Below are positions 1-44,932 of a stretch of 44,932 nt of DNA, in pieces. Both the position numbers and the translations under genes were made by a program. Numbering within the stretch: the first letter of the stretch is position 1; every line of letters begins with the position of its first letter. The notes under the pieces are model-generated. The model did not search any database. It was not told the origin of the DNA and was given only the letters and a program-made list of their open reading frames with translations. The DNA comes from Citrobacter phage phiNP, in the sequence record OR565852; one strand, 5' to 3'.

Positions 1-25
1 GGTTCAACTCCCGCCAGCTCCACCA
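1..25 (+). ncRNA. ssrA: 3'-terminal segment of tmRNA gene ssrA (…GGTTCAACTCCCGCCAGCTCCACCA), serving as the attL core. The body of ssrA must lie upstream of the window.
   Basis: Matches the canonical enterobacterial tmRNA 3' end, including the terminal CCA. The same 25-mer is repeated at 44908-44932. Confidence 0.75.
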
Positions 26-39918: not shown

Positions 39919-40112
39919 AGATCCGCTGTTTTTTCGGGCTTCATAAATGGGTGCTGTTCAAGAAAGAGCTTCACCCATATCAATCTCTTAACGGACTGCA
40001 GCCAACTATTATTTTCCACTATGGGTGTAATGGCTGCGGCAAGACCAGAACAGAGACTCGCGAAGAGGGTTACTGGCATTCTTTTAAACCATCAGATTTG
40101 GAGCACATGTAA
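39915..40112 (+). CDS. Small Cys-containing hypothetical protein (65 aa).
   Basis: …HYGCNGCGK… may be a zinc-ribbon half-site. The ORF is coupled to its neighbours. Confidence 0.25.
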   Translation: MKIRCFFGLHKWVLFKKELHPYQSLNGLQPTIIFHYGCNGCGKTRTETREEGYWHSFKPSDLEHM

Positions 40113-40679
40113 TGAACCACCTTATGATCGACCTAGAAACGATGGGTAATAAGCCTGCTGCGCCAATTGTCGCGATCGGCGCTGTGTTTTTCGACCCGAA
40201 AAGCGGTGAGCTGGGCGCCGAGTTCTATGTGGCCGTCAACCTCGCCAGCGCCATGGATCAGGGTGCTACCCCTGACGGTGACACGATCCTGTGGTGGCTG
40301 AAGCAATCAGCGGAAGCTCGCGCTGCTATTTGTACCGACGACACTAAGAACATCGCCGAAGCGCTCTCCGAGCTTAGGTCATTTATTAGCCGTAACTCTG
40401 ACAAACCGCGTTATCTGAAAGTCTGGGGCAATGGCGCCAATTTCGACAACGTTATTTTGCGTTCAGCCTATGAACGCGCCGGCCAAACCTGCCCGTGGCA
40501 ATTCTGGAACGACAGCGACGTGCAGCACCATGGTGCTGCTCGGCAAACAGCTTGGTTTCGATCCAAAGCGCGATATGCCATTTGATGGTGTAGCCCACAA
40601 CGCACTGGCCGATGCCCACCACCAGGTGAAATATGTATCGGCAATCTGGCAGCGACTATTGCCCGCCAGCGCCGAATAA
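40112..40679 (+). pseudogene. DEDDh-family (DnaQ/RNase T-like) 3'-5' exonuclease gene split by a +1 frame change near 40511-40531.
   Basis: Exo I (MIDLETMG) and Exo II (WGNGANFDNVIL) lie in the frame of ORF 40112..40585. Exo III (…GVAHNALADAHHQV…) lies in the frame of ORF 40431..40679. The two frames share the junction WNDSDVQ/TMVLLGKQ. Confidence 0.55.
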
Positions 40680-40721
40680 TACCCCTAATAGCCCGGGTGC
40701 AGCCGGGCAATGGAGAAATTT

Positions 40722-40928
40722 ATGCTGAGCCTCGATTGTGTTCCCATCTCAACTTATTGCAAAGAGACAGGCGAAACTCCTGATGCGATCAACAAGCGCG
40801 TACAGCGCGGTGTGTGGCGTGAAGGGGTTCAGGTGCTGAAAGTCGAAGGCGTTAAGGAGAGATGGATAGATCTTAGTGAGGTTGCAAAATGGGCCAGACA
40901 GAATCGCCTAAACTCCCGCGCGGCGTAA
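40722..40928 (+). CDS. xis: Excisionase-like protein (Xis).
   Basis: A 68 aa basic protein immediately upstream of and overlapping int. A GGAGA RBS is present. Sequence begins MLSLDCVPISTYCKETGETPDAINKRVQRGVW…. Confidence 0.5.
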   Translation: MLSLDCVPISTYCKETGETPDAINKRVQRGVWREGVQVLKVEGVKERWIDLSEVAKWARQNRLNSRAA

Positions 40929-42055
40929 CCATCAGGAAACATCGCAACGGTCAAACCATCAATATTACTTTTACATATAAAGGGGTGAAATGCCGTGAGC
41001 CTCTTTCTAATCTGGACGTAACCCCTAAAAATATCAAATACGCCGAGCGCACACTCGGCGAAATCCATAACAAGATCGAAAGGGGAACGTTTGTTTACGC
41101 GGAATACTTTCCCCGTTCTACCCGATTAAAAATTTTCGGAAACGCTGCCGCAGGAAAAACGGTGAAGATGTATCTGGATGAGTATCTGGTGATCTGCGAA
41201 ACGAGGAAGCTTTCCCCTTCGACAATAGGCGGGTACAAGAAATGCCGAAGCGCATTGTCATCACTTCATATTTATCCTGCAAGTGAGTTGACGCCGGCTG
41301 CATTGAAGACATGGATCCAGAACCAGAAAACGACATTGAAGACCATCCGAAACCAGTTGTCATTCCTGCGTTCTGCATTGGATGAAGCAGTGACAGATGG
41401 TGTGCTTCAGATTAACCCTGTATCTCTGGTAACAGCCTCACGATACCAAAGTGATAAATCAGAGGCAGAAAGTAGTTATGTGGTTGATCCGCTATCACCA
41501 GCAGAAGTTGATGCTTTGCTCTCTGCTACTGGCAATAAGCAGTGGGAGAATCTTTTCCGGTTCGCGATACAAACAGGGCTGCGTAGTTCCGAATTGTGTG
41601 CTCTTCGTTGGCGTGATATCGACTTTGTAGGGAAGACTGCCCATATCCAGAGCGCCAGTGTTGTTGGTGTGATCAAAGGGACCAAGACAAAAGCAGGTAC
41701 CCGTAAAGTTGAACTCACAGATGAAGCAATGTCGGCTCTGATAAATCAGAAACCGTTCACGTTCATGAAGGGCGCTACTGTCTTTGAGGATCCAAAGACC
41801 AATAAGCCGTGGGCAAGTGCTGATGCAATTAGAAAAAAGGCATGGGTGCCGACATTGCGAAAGGCTGGTATTCGGTACAGAAACCCATATCAGACTAGAC
41901 ATACATTCGCCACATGCCATATCAGCCGGGGAACAAACTTGTTCTGGCTTGCGACTCAAATGGGACATAAAGGCCCAGAGATGCTTTTCCGTCACTACGG
42001 CTCATATCTGAAGGAATATGATGGACAAACAAGCCTGAAGAAGATAAAAATATAA
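40889..42055 (+). CDS. int: Tyrosine integrase (lambda Int family, IntS-like).
   Basis: The catalytic region …RHTFATCHISRGTNLFWLATQMGHKGPEMLFRHYGSY… carries the R…HxxR…Y signature. The gene is transcribed towards attR. Confidence 0.8.
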   Translation: MGQTESPKLPRGVTIRKHRNGQTINITFTYKGVKCREPLSNLDVTPKNIKYAERTLGEIHNKIERGTFVYAEYFPRSTRLKIFGNAAAGKTVKMYLDEYLVICETRKLSPSTIGGYKKCRSALSSLHIYPASELTPAALKTWIQNQKTTLKTIRNQLSFLRSALDEAVTDGVLQINPVSLVTASRYQSDKSEAESSYVVDPLSPAEVDALLSATGNKQWENLFRFAIQTGLRSSELCALRWRDIDFVGKTAHIQSASVVGVIKGTKTKAGTRKVELTDEAMSALINQKPFTFMKGATVFEDPKTNKPWASADAIRKKAWVPTLRKAGIRYRNPYQTRHTFATCHISRGTNLFWLATQMGHKGPEMLFRHYGSYLKEYDGQTSLKKIKI

Positions 42056-42058
42056 TCC

Positions 42059-43846
42059 ATGTCTGAATTATTGGCCGCAATTTGTGGCCATTTCATGGAA
42101 CAAGGTACAAACATGGCAAATCCAATAACCAAACTAAAAAAAATAAACGTTGTAAAATTTCGAGGACTAAAAAATATAAATATAGAATTTGGTTCGCGAC
42201 TAACTGTTATTTGTGGTAAAAACGGCACATCTAAATCGACAATTCTTGGTATTATCGCCCAAATTTTTAGTTTTACAAAAGATCTGTCTAAGAACCCCGA
42301 GGTTGATTTAACACAATATAAGACATTAACTAATGGCACCTTCAAGTCAGCTTTCAGTGAACATTTTAGACTTTCAGAACAATTTGATACTGCAGGTTCA
42401 ATGGAAGTCAGGATTAGTGTTTATGATGGTGCATCTAACAAACATCTTGAAAAGCTAACATTGGGTCTATACAGCTCCAGTGACAGGGATAAATCAAGGC
42501 CAATAGTCAGGGGCAATGATTCCATACCGGGGAAAAACCAAAGTAGAAACGTCACTCATCCAGTTATTTTTCTAAGCTTAGCAAGACTTCTCCCTATTAC
42601 TCTACGGACTGATTACTCAACAAGGGATGTTCAGTATATCAATGAAAACGCAGATGATATAAGAATAATGAGCAATCAACTCTTACTTAAGAATAATGGG
42701 TGCTCAGTAACAGCCACGAAAGGGACGATCGATTCAATGGTCGTACACGGCGATAATTACGACCATCAATCAGTCTCTGTTGGTGAGGATAATGTTGGAC
42801 AATTAATTCAAGCAATATTTTCCTTTAAAAGGCTAAAAGAACTTTATGACGATTATCATGGAGGTATTTTATTAATTGATGAAGCGGACGCAGGTCTTTT
42901 CCCTGCTGCTCAGTTAGAATTAATTGACATTCTAGCTAAAGCAGCTAAAAAATATGACTTGCAAATAATCATGACTTCTCACTCACCATTAATAATAGAA
43001 GATATTTTCAATCGTTCCAAACAAGATGCCAACGGATTTAAAACAATATATCTGACAGATACTTATGGTGATATTAAAACAAAAGACAATCTATCATGGG
43101 CCGATATCAATGCTGATTTGCATGTTGAAACTGTAAAAATAAATGATGAGATTAGCCTTCCAAAAGCCAACGTATATTTTGAAGATAAAGAAGGCTTCGA
43201 TTTTTTCAAACAATTGATAATTGATAGAAGAATAAACAGAATATTGAATCCATTAGGAAACATAAATATTAGTTGTACTGCTATCCTAGATTTAATGGCT
43301 AGAAAAGTCCCTGAGTTTACTAACAAAAGCCTAGTTGTCTTAGACGGTGATGTTGCTCTCGATAACAGTGACAATGCTAAAAAAGCGAAAAAAGAGAGAA
43401 GCTTATGCTTGCTTCCAGGCATTCTTCCCCCAGATCAAATGATTTTTGAATTCTTATATAACTTACCTCCAGACGATATATATTGGAACAATAAAAATAG
43501 ATTTACAAAAGCAGTATTTATGAAAATAACAAAAGACATAATTACAACATTAAAAATAAGTAACTATCCTATTGATTTACTAAATTCTATAGAGAATTAT
43601 AAAAAATCAAACAAAAACCATGGCGGAGTGGTTAGAAAACTATTTAAAGATTTTGTCCATACGCCTGAGTTCCTAGCACAAGTAAAAGGGCGAGTTAAAG
43701 ATAATCCTTATCGATATTGGGTCGAGAAACACCCCGTAGAATCCGATAATTTCAAGCATGAATTAATCAAAAACCTTAAAATTATTATGACAAATGGACA
43801 TGGCGTTGACTCTGCTACCATCACTTCGTATCTGTCTGGCAACTAA
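42059..43846 (+). CDS. OLD-family ABC-type ATPase with a C-terminal TOPRIM-like nuclease domain (putative anti-phage or abortive-infection nuclease) in an AT-rich cargo cassette.
   Basis: Walker A is …TVICGKNGTSKSTILGII… and Walker B is …GGILLIDEADAGLF…. The ABC H-loop is …MTSHSPLII…. The C-terminal half carries …VYFEDKEGFDF… and …LVVLDGDVALDNSD…, which fit the Toprim Glu and DxD elements. The ATG lies 3 nt after the int stop. The gene is markedly AT-rich. Confidence 0.5.
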   Translation: MSELLAAICGHFMEQGTNMANPITKLKKINVVKFRGLKNINIEFGSRLTVICGKNGTSKSTILGIIAQIFSFTKDLSKNPEVDLTQYKTLTNGTFKSAFSEHFRLSEQFDTAGSMEVRISVYDGASNKHLEKLTLGLYSSSDRDKSRPIVRGNDSIPGKNQSRNVTHPVIFLSLARLLPITLRTDYSTRDVQYINENADDIRIMSNQLLLKNNGCSVTATKGTIDSMVVHGDNYDHQSVSVGEDNVGQLIQAIFSFKRLKELYDDYHGGILLIDEADAGLFPAAQLELIDILAKAAKKYDLQIIMTSHSPLIIEDIFNRSKQDANGFKTIYLTDTYGDIKTKDNLSWADINADLHVETVKINDEISLPKANVYFEDKEGFDFFKQLIIDRRINRILNPLGNINISCTAILDLMARKVPEFTNKSLVVLDGDVALDNSDNAKKAKKERSLCLLPGILPPDQMIFEFLYNLPPDDIYWNNKNRFTKAVFMKITKDIITTLKISNYPIDLLNSIENYKKSNKNHGGVVRKLFKDFVHTPEFLAQVKGRVKDNPYRYWVEKHPVESDNFKHELIKNLKIIMTNGHGVDSATITSYLSGN

Positions 43847-43857
43847 TTGATTGAAAA

Positions 43858-43892
43858 GGGCTTTATATGATGGCCATAAAGCCCTTTTTTTG
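43858..43892 (+). terminator. Intrinsic terminator (AAAGGGCTTTAT…ATAAAGCCCTTTTTTT).
   Basis: A long stem followed by a T7 tract, directly after the OLD-like gene. Confidence 0.55.
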
Positions 43893-43925
43893 ATATACTT
43901 TAGACTTGACATTTAGAGGTATCAT

Positions 43926-44807
43926 ATGCGTTTTAACACCCCACTTCGTTATCCTGGCGGCAAAGGCAAGCTTTCTAATTTCATGCTTCGGATTATTGAA
44001 GATAATAAGCTTTCGCCTATACATTATGCAGAGCCATATGCTGGGGGTGCTGGTTTAGCGCTGAAGCTGTTACACTTAAATGTAGCTGAAAAAATCATTC
44101 TTAATGATATTAATATCTCAGTTTATGCTTTTTGGCACAGTGTATTAAATAATGCAGATCATTTATGTGCTTTAATTGAGGATACTGAAGTCACAATGGA
44201 TGAGTGGTTCAAACAGAAAGAAATAATTAATCATCCAAGAGACCATGATATGCTAACAATTGGTTTTTCTACCTTTTTTCTTAATAGAACAAATCGTTCT
44301 GGAATATTAAAAGGCGGTGTAATTGGTGGTAAAAATCAAGAAGGGCAATGGAAACTTGATGCTCGTTATAACAAGAGCGATTTAATTTCTCGGATTCAGA
44401 AAATATCAAAAAACCGTGAAAGAATAGATTTGTATAACATGGATGCAATTGATTTCATAAAAAAAATAGTTGTTCAATTGCCTAAAAAATCATTAACATA
44501 TTTAGATCCGCCATATTATATAAAAGGTAAGGGATTATATATCAATCATTATGAACATAGTGACCATGTTAATGTTGCAAAAGTAGTGCAGCATGATATT
44601 AAAACACCGTGGATTGTTTCTTACGATAACACTCCTGAGATCCAAGGTATGTATAAGGCATCATCATTAGTGTATGGAATAAACTACAGTGCTCAAGATC
44701 GATATAAGGGCTCAGAAGTGATGTTCTTCAGTAAACGATTGAAAGTCTTTAAAACCGATGATCCAACTAAGGTAAAAGCACCTACCAATAAAAATGCTAT
44801 GAGCTAG
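43926..44807 (+). CDS. Dam-like (D12 class, alpha) N6-adenine DNA methyltransferase in an AT-rich cargo cassette.
   Basis: …LRYPGGKGKL… matches the Dam KWAGGK motif. Motif I is …AEPYAGGAGL… and motif IV is …YLDPPYY…. A TTGACA -35 element lies upstream at 43906. Confidence 0.7.
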   Translation: MRFNTPLRYPGGKGKLSNFMLRIIEDNKLSPIHYAEPYAGGAGLALKLLHLNVAEKIILNDINISVYAFWHSVLNNADHLCALIEDTEVTMDEWFKQKEIINHPRDHDMLTIGFSTFFLNRTNRSGILKGGVIGGKNQEGQWKLDARYNKSDLISRIQKISKNRERIDLYNMDAIDFIKKIVVQLPKKSLTYLDPPYYIKGKGLYINHYEHSDHVNVAKVVQHDIKTPWIVSYDNTPEIQGMYKASSLVYGINYSAQDRYKGSEVMFFSKRLKVFKTDDPTKVKAPTNKNAMS

Positions 44808-44892
44808 ACGACTACCCACGGACAGAAAAAGCGCCGTAAAAGAGCCGCAGCAAAGTCACTTTTTAATAAATCATTTTTAATCAAAAAGATAA

Positions 44893-44932
44893 TAAGTTTC
44901 GGACGCTGGTTCAACTCCCGCCAGCTCCACCA
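44893..44932 (+). repeat. attR: a second copy of the ssrA 3' end (AAGTTTCGGACGCT + the 25-nt core GGTTCAACTCCCGCCAGCTCCACCA).
   Basis: The 25-mer at 44908-44932 is identical to 1-25. The 15 nt upstream imitate ssrA imperfectly (tttcggacgcTggttc versus native …tttcggacgcGggttc), as expected for a phage-borne mimic of the gene end. Confidence 0.7.

What the first reader, a model, noticed from the sequence alone, without database searches (positions are those of the whole stretch)
42056..44810. AT-rich two-gene cassette (OLD-family ATPase/TOPRIM nuclease + Dam-like MTase) inserted between int and attR. It is a candidate undescribed R-M-like defence pair.
In most integrase-bearing prophages the int stop abuts attP. 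Here 2.8 kb of strongly AT-rich DNA lies between the int stop (42055) and the att core (44908). The ATG of a 595 aa protein sits only 3 nt after the int stop. This protein combines an ABC/AAA_15-type ATPase (GKNGTSKST, LLIDEAD, TSHSP) with a C-terminal region bearing Toprim-like Glu and DxD elements. That is the architecture of the P2 Old / class 1 OLD nucleases. After a strong terminator comes a stand-alone Dam-like D12 adenine methyltransferase with its own TTGACA promoter. An OLD-type nuclease paired with an orphan-looking adenine MTase is, to my knowledge, not a described defence system. The pair could act like an R-M or modification-dependent self/non-self system, with the MTase protecting the lysogen from the nuclease. 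Alternatively they are two independent cargo genes. The integrase-proximal position is a known defence hotspot.
Basis: partly seen in the sequence, partly recalled or inferred. Interest (0 to 1): 0.8.

Follow-up and report, generated by a model that had tools for sequence, protein, structure and literature searches.

The report
ATPase-nuclease plus methylase defence cassette
At the right end of Citrobacter prophage phiNP sit two always-linked genes, a DNA adenine methylase and an ATP-driven OLD-like (Toprim) nuclease, which most likely form an untested restriction-modification-like anti-phage system related to the validated PD-lambda-5 and HEC-04 defences.

Summary
The window is the whole Citrobacter rodentium prophage phiNP. 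A 2.75 kb cassette of 34% GC (the rest is 54%) lies between int and the 25-bp ssrA att core. It encodes an ABC-ATPase with a divergent C-terminal Toprim domain and a D12 adenine methyltransferase.

Two details need correcting. The conserved start of the ATPase is M19 (42113, 577 aa). The methylase promoter is a conserved extended -10, not the TTGACA.

The pair is not two independent cargo genes. In 78 of 78 informative loci from many phyla the methylase sits next to the ATPase, and the two proteins co-diverge.

The methylase belongs to the clade of the validated PD-lambda-5 system (51% identity). In that clade it pairs with a ParB/HEPN protein, with this ATPase-Toprim, or with both. The Toprim region matches the mutation-validated Toprim of HEC-04.

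No library or paper I searched describes this pair.

My best reading, at about 0.55, is a restriction-modification-like module. The methylase marks self DNA and the ATP-dependent Toprim nuclease attacks unmarked DNA. An abortive-infection or guard mechanism remains possible. Function is untested.

I rate it a new variant of a known kind, of moderate to high interest.

The parts
1..25 (+). Left copy of the 25-bp att core (3' end of ssrA/tmRNA). It marks the other end of prophage phiNP.
   Evidence: Exact repeat of 44908-44932, with no match in any of 100 shuffles. It is the reverse complement of the published attP (PMC6456863).
40889..42055 (+). Tyrosine integrase (388 aa). It forms the left boundary of the cassette.
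   Evidence: Arm-DNA-bind_2 8.8e-24 and Phage_integrase 1.7e-15. The same int+cassette block is found in E. coli.
42059..43846 (+). ABC-ATPase-Toprim gene. The longest ORF is 595 aa. The probable real start is the ATG at 42113 (577 aa).
   Evidence: ORF list. Homologues and NCBI models are 577 aa. AAA_15 1.5e-16 and AAA_21 2e-12.
42113..43123 (+). ABC-type ATPase head with a beta-rich insert (residues 1-337). It carries Walker A at 42215-42238, a signature-like SVGEDN at 42776-42793, Walker B at 42869-42889 and the H-loop at 42974-42988.
   Evidence: Motif positions verified. All are invariant in 26 homologues of 49-77% identity. PDB sequence hits are PtuA, Thermus OLD and AriA. Fold hits are OLD, GajA and retron Eco8.
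43160..43462 (+). Divergent Toprim core (residues about 350-450). It holds YFED (E357/D358, 43175-43186), LDGDV (D411/D413, 43340-43354) and PPDQ..E (43427-43450).
43463..43843 (+). All-helical C-terminal extension (residues about 451-577). It is specific to the roughly 575-aa form and its function is unknown.
   Evidence: Secondary structure. Shorter sister proteins of 495-545 aa match only positions 13-135 of the C-terminal profile. It has no similarity to PD-lambda-5_A (hhalign probability 0.1).
43853..43892 (+). Intrinsic-terminator-like hairpin (14-bp stem, 9-nt loop) followed by a T-run, lying between the two genes.
   Evidence: Folding energy -23.9 kcal/mol, z = -3.9, with none of 200 shuffles as stable. 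It is conserved in close E. coli relatives.
43871..43899 (+). Probable methylase promoter: TGGCCA, 17 nt, TG-extended TATACT. It overlaps the terminator. The RBS AGAGG lies at 43915-43919.
   Evidence: Promoter scan. TGnTATAnT is conserved upstream of the methylase in six enterobacterial variants, including divergent ICE and e14-like versions.
43926..44807 (+). D12-class N6-adenine DNA methyltransferase (293 aa) of the PD-lambda-5_B clade. The SAM motif EPYAGGAG is at 44031-44054 and the catalytic DPPY at 44505-44516.
   Evidence: Pfam MethyltransfD12 1.1e-17. PADLOC PD-Lambda-5_B 2.8e-123 over the full length. It is 51% identical to the methylase of a canonical PD-lambda-5 locus. The motifs are invariant in 14 homologues.
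44908..44932 (+). Right copy of the 25-bp att core (attR side).

Best explanation
The cassette is a self-contained, horizontally mobile, two-gene restriction-modification-like defence module carried as cargo by prophage phiNP.

**Shown**
- One gene encodes an intact D12 N6-adenine DNA methyltransferase with its own promoter.
- The other encodes an ABC-ATPase fused to a divergent Toprim domain with intact metal-binding acidic residues.
- The two genes are inherited together across phyla.
- The methylase clade is the one used by the validated PD-lambda-5 defence system.

**Inferred**
- The methylase marks a short motif, not GATC, on the lysogen's DNA.
- The ATPase-Toprim protein is probably an oligomer like OLD or GajA. 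It uses ATP binding or hydrolysis to engage DNA and cuts or nicks DNA that lacks the mark, so incoming phage DNA is restricted.
- Separate expression of the methylase, from an extended -10 promoter downstream of a terminator, keeps the host protected.
- Within this methylase clade the ParB/HEPN protein of PD-lambda-5 and the ATPase-Toprim protein are interchangeable or combinable restriction-side effectors.
For: **Linkage**
- An ATPase-anchored scan of one genome per species returned 80 loci from Proteobacteria, Mycobacterium, Bacteroidota, Acidobacteriota and Listeria. A homologous methylase was found in 78 of them, and the two without one end at a contig edge.
- In 70 of the 78 the methylase lies on the same strand within 150 bp downstream. 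The rest show other orders and orientations, as R-M systems do.
- The pairwise identity matrices of the two proteins correlate (Mantel r = 0.75, p = 0.001, 76 loci).
- No third gene is shared by the loci.

**Asymmetry typical of R-M**
- No locus has the ATPase without the methylase.
- Methylase-anchored loci include several lone methylases.

**Mobility as a unit.** In E. coli the pair occurs in lambdoid prophages next to int, in P4-like satellites, in an ICE and in an e14-like element.

**Methylase**
- PADLOC PD-Lambda-5_B 2.8e-123 and MTase_II 6.6e-109.
- It is 51% identical to the methylase of a canonical PD-lambda-5 locus.
- PD-lambda-5 is an experimentally validated, broad defence. Its authors describe it as a compacted RM+Abi system, and it had to be cloned in an mrr-deleted host. 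That implies an active methylase that does not target Dam sites (PMC9519451).

**Partners of the methylase clade in viral contigs**
- Of 63 loci with at least 35% methylase identity, 32 have a PD-lambda-5_A partner, 15 have an ATPase-Toprim partner and 2 have both. Six more have a divergent ATPase, five of them with E-D...DxD motifs.
- None of 17 loci with more distant Dam-like methylases has either partner.
- Three-gene operons also exist: ATPase-Toprim, a PD-lambda-5_A-like gene and the methylase.

**Nuclease**
- Fold, motif and HEC-04 evidence.
- In HEC-04, Walker A and E/D/D mutants lose defence (bioRxiv 10.1101/2024.01.29.577857).

**Precedent for sequence specificity in this fold.** GajA is a site-specific nicking enzyme (PMC10568477).
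Against: - No experiment bears on this pair. No methylated motif, no toxicity of the nuclease alone and no phage phenotype are known.
- Characterised relatives act as abortive-infection or trigger-activated effectors, not as readers of methylation. These are P2 Old, Gabija, PARIS, retron Eco8 and HEC-04. HEC-04 defends without any methylase.
- At least one short sister protein is stand-alone.
- PD-lambda-5 protects best against T-even phages, which classical R-M handles poorly. Its authors suspected an Abi component.
- phiNP lysogens of mrr+ E. coli K-12 grow normally (PMC6456863), whereas PD-lambda-5 needed an mrr deletion. The specificity or expression level of this methylase may therefore differ.
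- Nothing identifies a DNA sequence-reading element in the nuclease.
Confidence: 0.55

Rival explanations
1. Abortive-infection or guard model. The ATPase-Toprim protein is a trigger-activated suicide or dormancy effector, like PARIS, Gabija, P2 Old or HEC-04. The methylase acts as its partner or antitoxin, either by protein contact or by keeping the genome in a methylated 'all is well' state. Phage factors or phage-induced loss of methylation release the nuclease, which then degrades host and phage nucleic acid indiscriminately.
For: - All characterised ABC-ATPase-Toprim relatives are trigger-activated (PMC10568477).
- HEC-04 is toxic when induced and defends as a single gene.
- The PD-lambda-5 authors describe it as 'RM+Abi', and it is strongest against T-even phages.
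- In three-gene operons the ATPase-Toprim sits beside a complete PD-lambda-5 A+B pair, as a backup layer would.
- In about 19 loci the pair is embedded inside Type III R-M islands, like PrrC in EcoprrI.
Against: - In the two-gene form there is no other restriction component for the nuclease to guard. A lone methylase is not an obvious target of phage counter-defence.
- Strict linkage to a catalytically intact DNA methylase, with invariant DPPY and SAM motifs, is most simply explained by methylation itself being read.
- Variable gene order and a separate methylase promoter resemble R-M.
Confidence: 0.25
2. The C-terminal domain is not a nuclease. The ATPase is a DNA-binding, clamp or translocase accessory that targets or regulates the methylase. 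This would be an epigenetic or anti-restriction module for the phage, with no restriction activity.
For: - Domain-level fold scores are in the grey zone, and flavodoxin- or receiver-like folds score as well as Toprim.
- No Pfam nuclease family matches.
- Many phages carry methylases for self-protection.
Against: - The acidic residues are invariant at the canonical Toprim positions (E357/D358, D411/D413). Their spacing is 54 aa, against 56 aa in HEC-04, where they are essential.
- The full-length best matches are OLD and GajA.
- The pair also sits in chromosomal defence islands and ICEs, not only in phages.
- The other partner of this methylase clade, PD-lambda-5_A, is part of a proven defence.
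Confidence: 0.1
3. The two genes are independent cargo that merely share an insertion hotspot: a stand-alone class-1-OLD-like defence gene and an orphan phage methylase.
For: - A terminator-like hairpin and a separate promoter lie between the genes.
- One short sister ATPase-Toprim is stand-alone.
- Orphan methylases of this clade exist.
Against: - Adjacency holds in 78 of 78 loci across phyla and in at least five different kinds of mobile element or island.
- The two proteins co-diverge.
- Most non-enterobacterial loci have only 41-60 bp between the genes.
Confidence: 0.05

Closest known systems
PD-lambda-5 (Vassallo et al. 2022, E. coli ECOR7; PADLOC PD-Lambda-5_A/B)
   Same: - It is a two-gene prophage-borne cassette built around the same D12 methyltransferase clade. 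The window methylase scores 2.8e-123 against PD-Lambda-5_B and is 51% identical to the methylase of a canonical P2-hotspot locus.
- It shows the same kind of tight pairing with a larger effector gene.
- Natural three-gene operons unite both effector types with this methylase.
   Different: - The effector is unrelated. PD-lambda-5_A is a roughly 470-500 aa ParB/HEPN protein without an ATPase.
- Here the effector is a 577-aa ABC-ATPase-Toprim. BLASTP finds nothing, and hhalign gives probability 0.1.
- PADLOC's two-gene PD-lambda-5 rule would not be met here.
HEC-04 (Payne et al. 2024 preprint): single-gene ABC-ATPase-TOPRIM defence
   Same: - Both fuse an ABC ATPase to a Toprim domain in one polypeptide.
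- The C-terminal regions of homologues match the HEC-04 profile at positions 313-406, which cover its essential E319/D375/D377.
- The spacing from E to DxD is the same.
   Different: - HEC-04 is about 494 aa, works alone and has no methylase partner.
- The window protein is a distant relative: its own C-terminus gives no hit.
- The window protein has an extra helical C-terminal extension of about 125 aa and is strictly linked to a methylase.
OLD-family nucleases: class 1 (P2 Old, Thermus OLD), class 2 (Gabija GajA), class 3 (retron Eco8)
   Same: - The overall architecture is the same: an N-terminal ABC ATPase with an insert and a C-terminal Toprim with E and DxD.
- These are the best full-length structural matches (6p74 and 8u7i at 1.4e-11).
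- The prophage-cargo setting resembles that of P2 old.
   Different: - About 10-14% identity.
- No match to the Pfam OLD-like_TOPRIM models.
- The partner gene is a methylase, not none, a UvrD-like helicase or a retron. The cassette therefore fits none of the context-defined classes (PMC10568477).
PARIS (AriA ABC ATPase + AriB DUF4435 Toprim)
   Same: - ABC ATPase plus Toprim logic.
- AriA profile hits at 1.7e-19.
- It is often prophage- or satellite-borne.
   Different: - PARIS has two separate proteins, is triggered by Ocr and cleaves tRNA, and has no methylase.
- The window protein gives no DUF4435 hit.
Menshen (NsnABC) and MADS (Mad3 ATPase/Mad4 Toprim): ABC-ATPase systems associated with ParB-DUF262 sensors and methylases
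   Same: - The ATPase aligns in one stretch with NsnB (5.3e-16) and weakly with Mad3.
- The trio of ParB-like protein, ABC ATPase and Toprim effector, sometimes with a methylase, recalls the three-gene variants found here (PMC12065111).
   Different: - Those are multi-protein systems with a separate effector and a DUF3696 ATPase tail.
- Here the effector is fused, and the only partner is a small D12 methylase.
Classical Type II restriction-modification
   Same: - Both are two-gene units of a solitary small methylase with its own promoter and a larger adjacent partner.
- Gene order is variable.
- Both are carried on mobile elements and in defence islands.
- PADLOC also scores the methylase as MTase_II (6.6e-109).
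   Different: - The presumed restriction component is an ATP-dependent ABC-ATPase-Toprim.
- To my knowledge that fold is not used by characterised Type II endonucleases.

Membership tests
OLD-family nuclease | N-terminal ABC-type ATPase with Walker A, Walker B and H-loop | tested here: met
   - GKNGTSKS, LLIDEAD and TSHSP are present and invariant.
- AAA_15 scores 1.5e-16.
- Thermus OLD 6p74 is matched by sequence profile at 8.7e-09 and by fold.
OLD-family nuclease | C-terminal Toprim fold with a catalytic Glu after beta1 and DxD after beta3 | tested here: inconclusive
   - Motifs and secondary-structure order fit.
- The full-length Foldseek top hits are OLD and GajA.
OLD-family nuclease | Match to curated OLD Toprim sequence models (Pfam OLD-like_TOPRIM families) | tested here: not met
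   - The full protein gives no hit.
- Only 1 of 21 C-terminal domains reaches E 0.27 for OLD-like_TOPRIM_1.
OLD-family nuclease classes 1-4 (defined by gene context) | Single gene (class 1), UvrD-like GajB neighbour (class 2), retron RT/ncRNA (class 3) or split AriA/AriB (class 4) | tested here: not met
   The constant neighbour is a D12 methylase in 78 of 78 loci. No helicase or RT gene is conserved nearby.
PD-lambda-5 | PD-Lambda-5_B methyltransferase | tested here: met
   PADLOC PDLC04018 scores 2.8e-123 over the full length. The methylase is 51-53% identical to the methylases of two PD-lambda-5 loci.
PD-lambda-5 | PD-Lambda-5_A (ParB/HEPN) effector adjacent to the methylase | tested here: not met
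   - No such ORF lies between int and att.
- The ATPase does not match PD-Lambda-5_A models, whereas true A proteins score 5e-168.
- hhalign gives probability 0.1.
HEC-04 | [quoted passage not shown] | tested here: met
   The architecture and motif spacing match. Homologues' C-termini align to HEC-04 profile positions 313-406.
HEC-04 | Sequence membership of the HEC-04 family and stand-alone single-gene organisation | tested here: not met
   - The whole-protein HEC-04 score (2.5e-16) is no better than generic ATPase hits such as PtuA (2.1e-20).
- The window C-terminus alone gives no hit.
- The gene is always paired with a methylase.
Type II restriction-modification system | Catalytically competent DNA methyltransferase with a tightly linked partner gene | tested here: met
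   DPPY and SAM motifs are invariant. Linkage and co-divergence are shown.
Type II restriction-modification system | The partner is an endonuclease whose cleavage is blocked by the cognate methylation | not testable with these tools
   This needs biochemistry or genetics. See the decisive next steps.
Dam (GATC) orthologue | Score above the curated cut-off of TIGR00571 (dam) | tested here: not met
   The score is 50.5 bits against a cut-off of 114.85. The PD-lambda-5 relative needs an mrr-deleted host, which argues against GATC specificity.
PARIS | Separate AriA plus an AriB with DUF4435 | tested here: not met
   It is a single polypeptide with no DUF4435 hit. Only the ATPase part matches AriA.

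The most novel reading that the evidence does not exclude
The cassette represents a new, phylogenetically widespread type of methylation-based restriction system. In it an OLD-like ABC-ATPase-Toprim enzyme is the ATP-dependent restriction component.

It belongs to a modular family in which one clade of D12 adenine methylases serves two interchangeable or combinable effectors: the ParB/HEPN protein PD-lambda-5_A and the ABC-ATPase-Toprim.

This would add a fifth, methylase-coupled class to the OLD nucleases. It would also give a mechanistic frame for the unexplained PD-lambda-5 system.
Probability: 0.45. Interest if true: 0.75.

Novelty: new variant of a known kind. Interest (0 to 1): 0.62.

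Why it matters
How OLD-like ATPase-Toprim nucleases tell self from non-self is an open question for P2 Old, Gabija, PARIS, retron Eco8 and HEC-04.

A clade that is obligately coupled to a DNA methylase offers a simple and directly testable answer for at least one branch: the methyl mark. It would also be a restriction enzyme built on a fold not known from classical R-M systems.

The finding gives context to PD-lambda-5, a validated broad-spectrum defence of unknown mechanism. Its methylase turns out to be the hub of a modular family with two alternative effectors.

The pair is common. C-terminal-domain relatives fall into 408 clusters at 50% identity. It is present in 85 of 5,426 complete E. 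coli genomes, including ST131 strains JJ1886 and JJ1887 and EAEC 042. PADLOC, Pfam and NCBIfam have no specific model for the nuclease, so current defence-finding tools probably under-call it.

phiNP is an active temperate phage that lysogenises E. coli K-12, so the experiments are easy.

Tried and rejected
- **Sequence profiles for the C-terminal domain.** Pfam gave nothing for the full protein or for 21 isolated C-terminal domains. NCBIfam gave only sub-threshold ATPase hits.
- **PDB sequence-profile search.** It found only the ATPase head.
- **Phage GenBank collection.** Megablast of the cassette found no match.
- **Is the helical C-terminal extension a fused piece of PD-lambda-5_A?** This was rejected: hhalign probability 0.1 and no BLASTP similarity.
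- **Are the shorter sister proteins (about 505-520 aa) HEC-04 itself?** They give no HEC-04 hit at E <= 1e-20, so they are a further sister group.
- **Identity to the window protein as a co-evolution measure.** It was uninformative: Spearman 0.07, with the Pearson value driven by one close homologue. I replaced it with a Mantel test on all pairwise identities.
- **Was the cluster around about 19 loci an Hma system?** I first thought so, but PADLOC shows an HKD+Snf2 helicase plus Type III Mod/Res.
- **Literature.** Searches for a described OLD or Toprim plus methyltransferase system found only unrelated cases. One example is P. aeruginosa PA1939/PA2735, where the two were shown to be independent. 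The phiNP papers list the gene only as 'ATPase' cargo.
- **Supplement of the embedding preprint.** It lists many rejected two-gene cassettes by family number only. I could not tell whether this pair was among them.
- **Recognition motif.** I did not try to infer it from motif avoidance.

Full report
**What is there**

The window is the complete Citrobacter rodentium prophage phiNP. The ATPase protein is 100% identical to 'AAA family ATPase [Citrobacter phage phiNP]'. The same 25-bp sequence lies at 1-25 and at 44908-44932. It is the reverse complement of the published phiNP attP, the 3' end of ssrA (PMC6456863).

The tyrosine integrase (40889-42055) is followed by 2.75 kb of 34.1% GC DNA, against 54.4% for the rest of the prophage.

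This stretch holds two + strand genes. The first is a 595-aa ORF at 42059-43846. The second is a 293-aa ORF at 43926-44807. Between them lies a strong hairpin with a T-run (43853-43892; -23.9 kcal/mol, z = -3.9).

- Homologues and NCBI gene models are 577 aa and align from M19. The likely start is 42113, not the ATG 3 nt after the int stop.
- The TTGACA lies at 43906-43911, only 14 nt from the methylase ATG, so it cannot serve as a -35. A TG-extended -10 (TATACT, 43894-43899) is conserved as TGnTATAnT in six enterobacterial versions of the cassette, including divergent ones. The methylase therefore probably does have its own promoter, but a different one.

**The two proteins**

The methylase is a D12-class N6-adenine enzyme (Pfam 1.1e-17). 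Its SAM motif (EPYAGGAG) and catalytic motif (DPPY) are intact and invariant. It scores below the Dam cut-off, 50.5 against 114.85 bits. It matches PADLOC's PD-Lambda-5_B model over its full length at 2.8e-123, and a Type II methylase model at 6.6e-109.

The larger protein has an ABC-type ATPase head. Walker A, a signature-like SVGEDN, Walker B and the H-loop are all invariant in 26 homologues of 49-77% identity.

By sequence, only this head is recognised:
- Pfam AAA_15 and AAA_21;
- PADLOC PtuA, AriA, GajA and NsnB;
- PDB PtuA, Thermus OLD and AriA.

No Pfam family matches the C-terminal 240 residues, either in the window protein or in 20 homologues.

**Is the C-terminus a Toprim nuclease?**

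Several independent but individually modest lines agree.

- The full-length AlphaFold model (pLDDT 88.9) has as its best PDB matches Thermus OLD and Gabija GajA. Both score E 1.4e-11, with alignments of about 600-700 columns. Retron Eco8 follows, and only then the ATPase-only PtuA proteins.
- The isolated C-terminal domain (pLDDT 92.2) has a beta1-alpha-beta2-alpha-beta3-alpha-beta4-alpha core followed by a helical bundle.
- The Foldseek top hit is the Xanthomonas OLD C-terminal region (E 0.086, probability 0.82).
- The invariant acidic residues sit where Toprim needs them: E357/D358 at the end of beta1 and D411-x-D413 at the end of beta3. A further invariant PPDQ..E follows beta4.
- When C-terminal domains alone are scanned against PADLOC, 12 of 21 hit HEC-04 (best 4.9e-05). 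The aligned region is HEC-04 profile positions 313-406. This region contains E319, D375 and D377, whose mutation abolishes HEC-04 defence (bioRxiv 10.1101/2024.01.29.577857). The spacing from E to DxD is 54 aa here and 56 aa in HEC-04.

I take the domain to be a divergent Toprim with about 85% confidence. The window's own C-terminus gives no profile hit, so membership of any curated OLD or Toprim family is not shown.

**Are the two genes a unit?**

Yes.

- I scanned one genome per species with the ATPase alignment and obtained 80 loci. They come from Gamma- and Betaproteobacteria, Geobacter, Azospirillum, Mycobacterium, Bacteroidota, Acidobacteriota and Listeria.
- tblastn finds a homologue of the methylase in 78 of them. 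The other two end 4 and 113 bp after the ATPase.
- In 70 of the 78 the methylase lies on the same strand within 150 bp downstream. The remainder show upstream, convergent or spaced arrangements.
- No third gene is common to the loci.
- The pairwise identity matrices of the two proteins correlate (Mantel r = 0.75, p = 0.001).
- In E. coli, 85 of 5,426 complete genomes carry the int-proximal cassette at 86-87% nucleotide identity. Diverged copies of the pair lie in P4-like satellites, in an ICE and in an e14-like element at icd.
- In about 19 loci the pair is nested between an HKD+Snf2 helicase and Type III Mod/Res genes.

The pair therefore moves as an autonomous module through mobile elements and defence islands.

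**Relation to PD-lambda-5**

PD-lambda-5 was found by functional selection in E. coli ECOR7. It is a two-gene system annotated 'ParB/HEPN, methyltransferase' and spans 2,461 bp. It gave the broadest protection in that study, had to be cloned in an mrr-deleted host, and was described as a compacted prophage RM+Abi system (PMC9519451).

A locus of exactly that layout in a P2 hotspot (L090) scores 5e-168 for PD-Lambda-5_A. Its methylase is 51% identical to the window's. The window's partner is unrelated to PD-Lambda-5_A.

I then anchored a scan on the methylase in viral contigs. Among 63 loci with at least 35% methylase identity:

| Partner next to the methylase | Loci |
|---|---|
| PD-Lambda-5_A-like | 32 |
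| ATPase-Toprim | 15 |
| Both | 2 |
| More divergent ATPase (five with the same E-D...DxD motifs) | 6 |
| No partner (some at contig ends) | about 8 |

None of 17 loci with more distant Dam-like methylases has either partner.

A profile search with the C-terminal domain found 408 cluster representatives. They include shorter sister proteins of 495-545 aa that share only the Toprim core. I inspected four of these:
- one stands alone;
- one has the methylase immediately upstream;
- two form three-gene operons of ATPase-Toprim, a PD-Lambda-5_A-like gene and a PD-Lambda-5_B methylase.

One methylase clade is thus the hub of a modular family with two alternative or combined effectors.

**Mechanism**

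*Shown:* an intact methylase with its own promoter; an intact ATPase and Toprim-type acidic site; obligate linkage and co-divergence; and kinship to two validated defences.

*Inferred:* the methylase marks self DNA at a non-GATC motif, and the ATPase-Toprim protein restricts DNA that lacks the mark in an ATP-dependent way.

Several observations favour this reading.
- The ATPase is never found without the methylase, while lone methylases do occur. This asymmetry is typical of R-M.
- Gene order varies, and the methylase is expressed separately.
- Each effector can pair alone with the methylase. This suggests that each reads the same mark.
- GajA shows that this fold can be sequence-specific (PMC10568477).

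I put this reading at 0.55.

The main rival, at 0.25, is a trigger-activated abortive-infection effector coupled to the methylase. All characterised relatives (P2 Old, Gabija, PARIS, retron Eco8, HEC-04) behave in that way. PD-lambda-5 itself is strongest against T-even phages, and its authors suspected an Abi component.

Two smaller rivals remain: a non-nuclease accessory of the methylase (0.1) and independent genes (0.05).

One point is noted but unexplained. phiNP lysogens of mrr+ K-12 grow normally, whereas PD-lambda-5 needed an mrr deletion.

**Comparison and novelty**

The cassette works like an R-M system and looks like an OLD or HEC-04 nuclease. It fails the membership tests of each named family.
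- It matches no OLD Toprim profile and has none of the class-defining neighbours.
- It has no PD-Lambda-5_A.
- It is not stand-alone like HEC-04.
- It lacks AriB/DUF4435 and GajB.

I found no description of an ABC-ATPase-Toprim plus D12 methylase system in the paper library. The OLD-family review lists only single-gene, helicase and retron contexts. The phiNP literature lists the gene merely as 'ATPase' cargo. I could not consult REBASE.

I therefore rate it a new variant of a known kind: a methylation-linked defence with a swapped effector. It is not categorically new.

**Verdict**

Interest is 0.62. The module is widespread, unannotated and experimentally tractable. It ties together PD-lambda-5, HEC-04 and the OLD family, but its function is still only inferred.

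Noticed in passing
window 1-25 and 44908-44932: The window is exactly one prophage. The 25-bp ssrA att core occurs at both ends, so the sequence runs from attL core to attR core of phiNP (44,932 bp).
   Followed up: yes
window 43871-43899; alignment A4 of L001, L002, L083, L087, L089: An extended -10 element (TGnTATAnT) just upstream of the methylase is conserved even in divergent ICE and e14-like versions. In the close relatives it overlaps the T-run of the terminator hairpin. This suggests that the methylase is transcribed independently of the nuclease.
   Followed up: partly
L076:1930-10564, L045:10345-13146 and about 17 similar genome loci: In about 19 of 78 loci the ATPase+methylase pair is nested between an HKD+Snf2 helicase (PADLOC C3a139, 4.6e-126) and Type III Mod/Res genes. 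This is an example of one defence module embedded in another.
   Followed up: partly
L094:2144-5786, L097:146-4114; also viral loci L108 and L110: Three-gene operons exist with overlapping or abutting genes: a short ATPase-Toprim, a PD-Lambda-5_A-like ParB protein and a PD-Lambda-5_B methylase. In L094 the operon sits next to a Type I specificity-subunit gene.
   Followed up: partly
PADLOC model PDLC04607 (PDC-M38A, 715 positions); The untested candidate PDC-M38A matches the window ATPase over profile positions 382-692. It also matches the ParB-like N-terminus of a PD-Lambda-5_A-like protein over positions 82-196. This looks like a natural fusion of the two effector types, which would hint that they act together.
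   Followed up: no
L003 (Symbiopectobacterium) and L080 (Listeria rocourtiae): In these two loci both the ATPase and the methylase give only partial tblastn matches. The two genes may be decaying together.
   Followed up: no
window 44808-44907: A 100-nt AT-rich non-coding stretch lies between the methylase stop and the att core. It is likely to hold integrase arm-type or accessory-factor sites of attP. I did not analyse it.
   Followed up: no
window 40710-40928 and 40112-40585: A 72-aa ORF overlaps the int start by 40 nt and may be an excisionase. A 157-aa ORF lies upstream of it. In E. coli relatives the corresponding upstream block is yfdP/yfdQ/yfdR-like.
   Followed up: no
literature on phiNP (PMC6456863) and PD-lambda-5 (PMC9519451): phiNP lysogenises mrr+ E. 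coli K-12 without a growth defect. The related PD-lambda-5 methylase system had to be cloned in an mrr-deleted strain. The two methylases may differ in target motif or in expression level.
   Followed up: no
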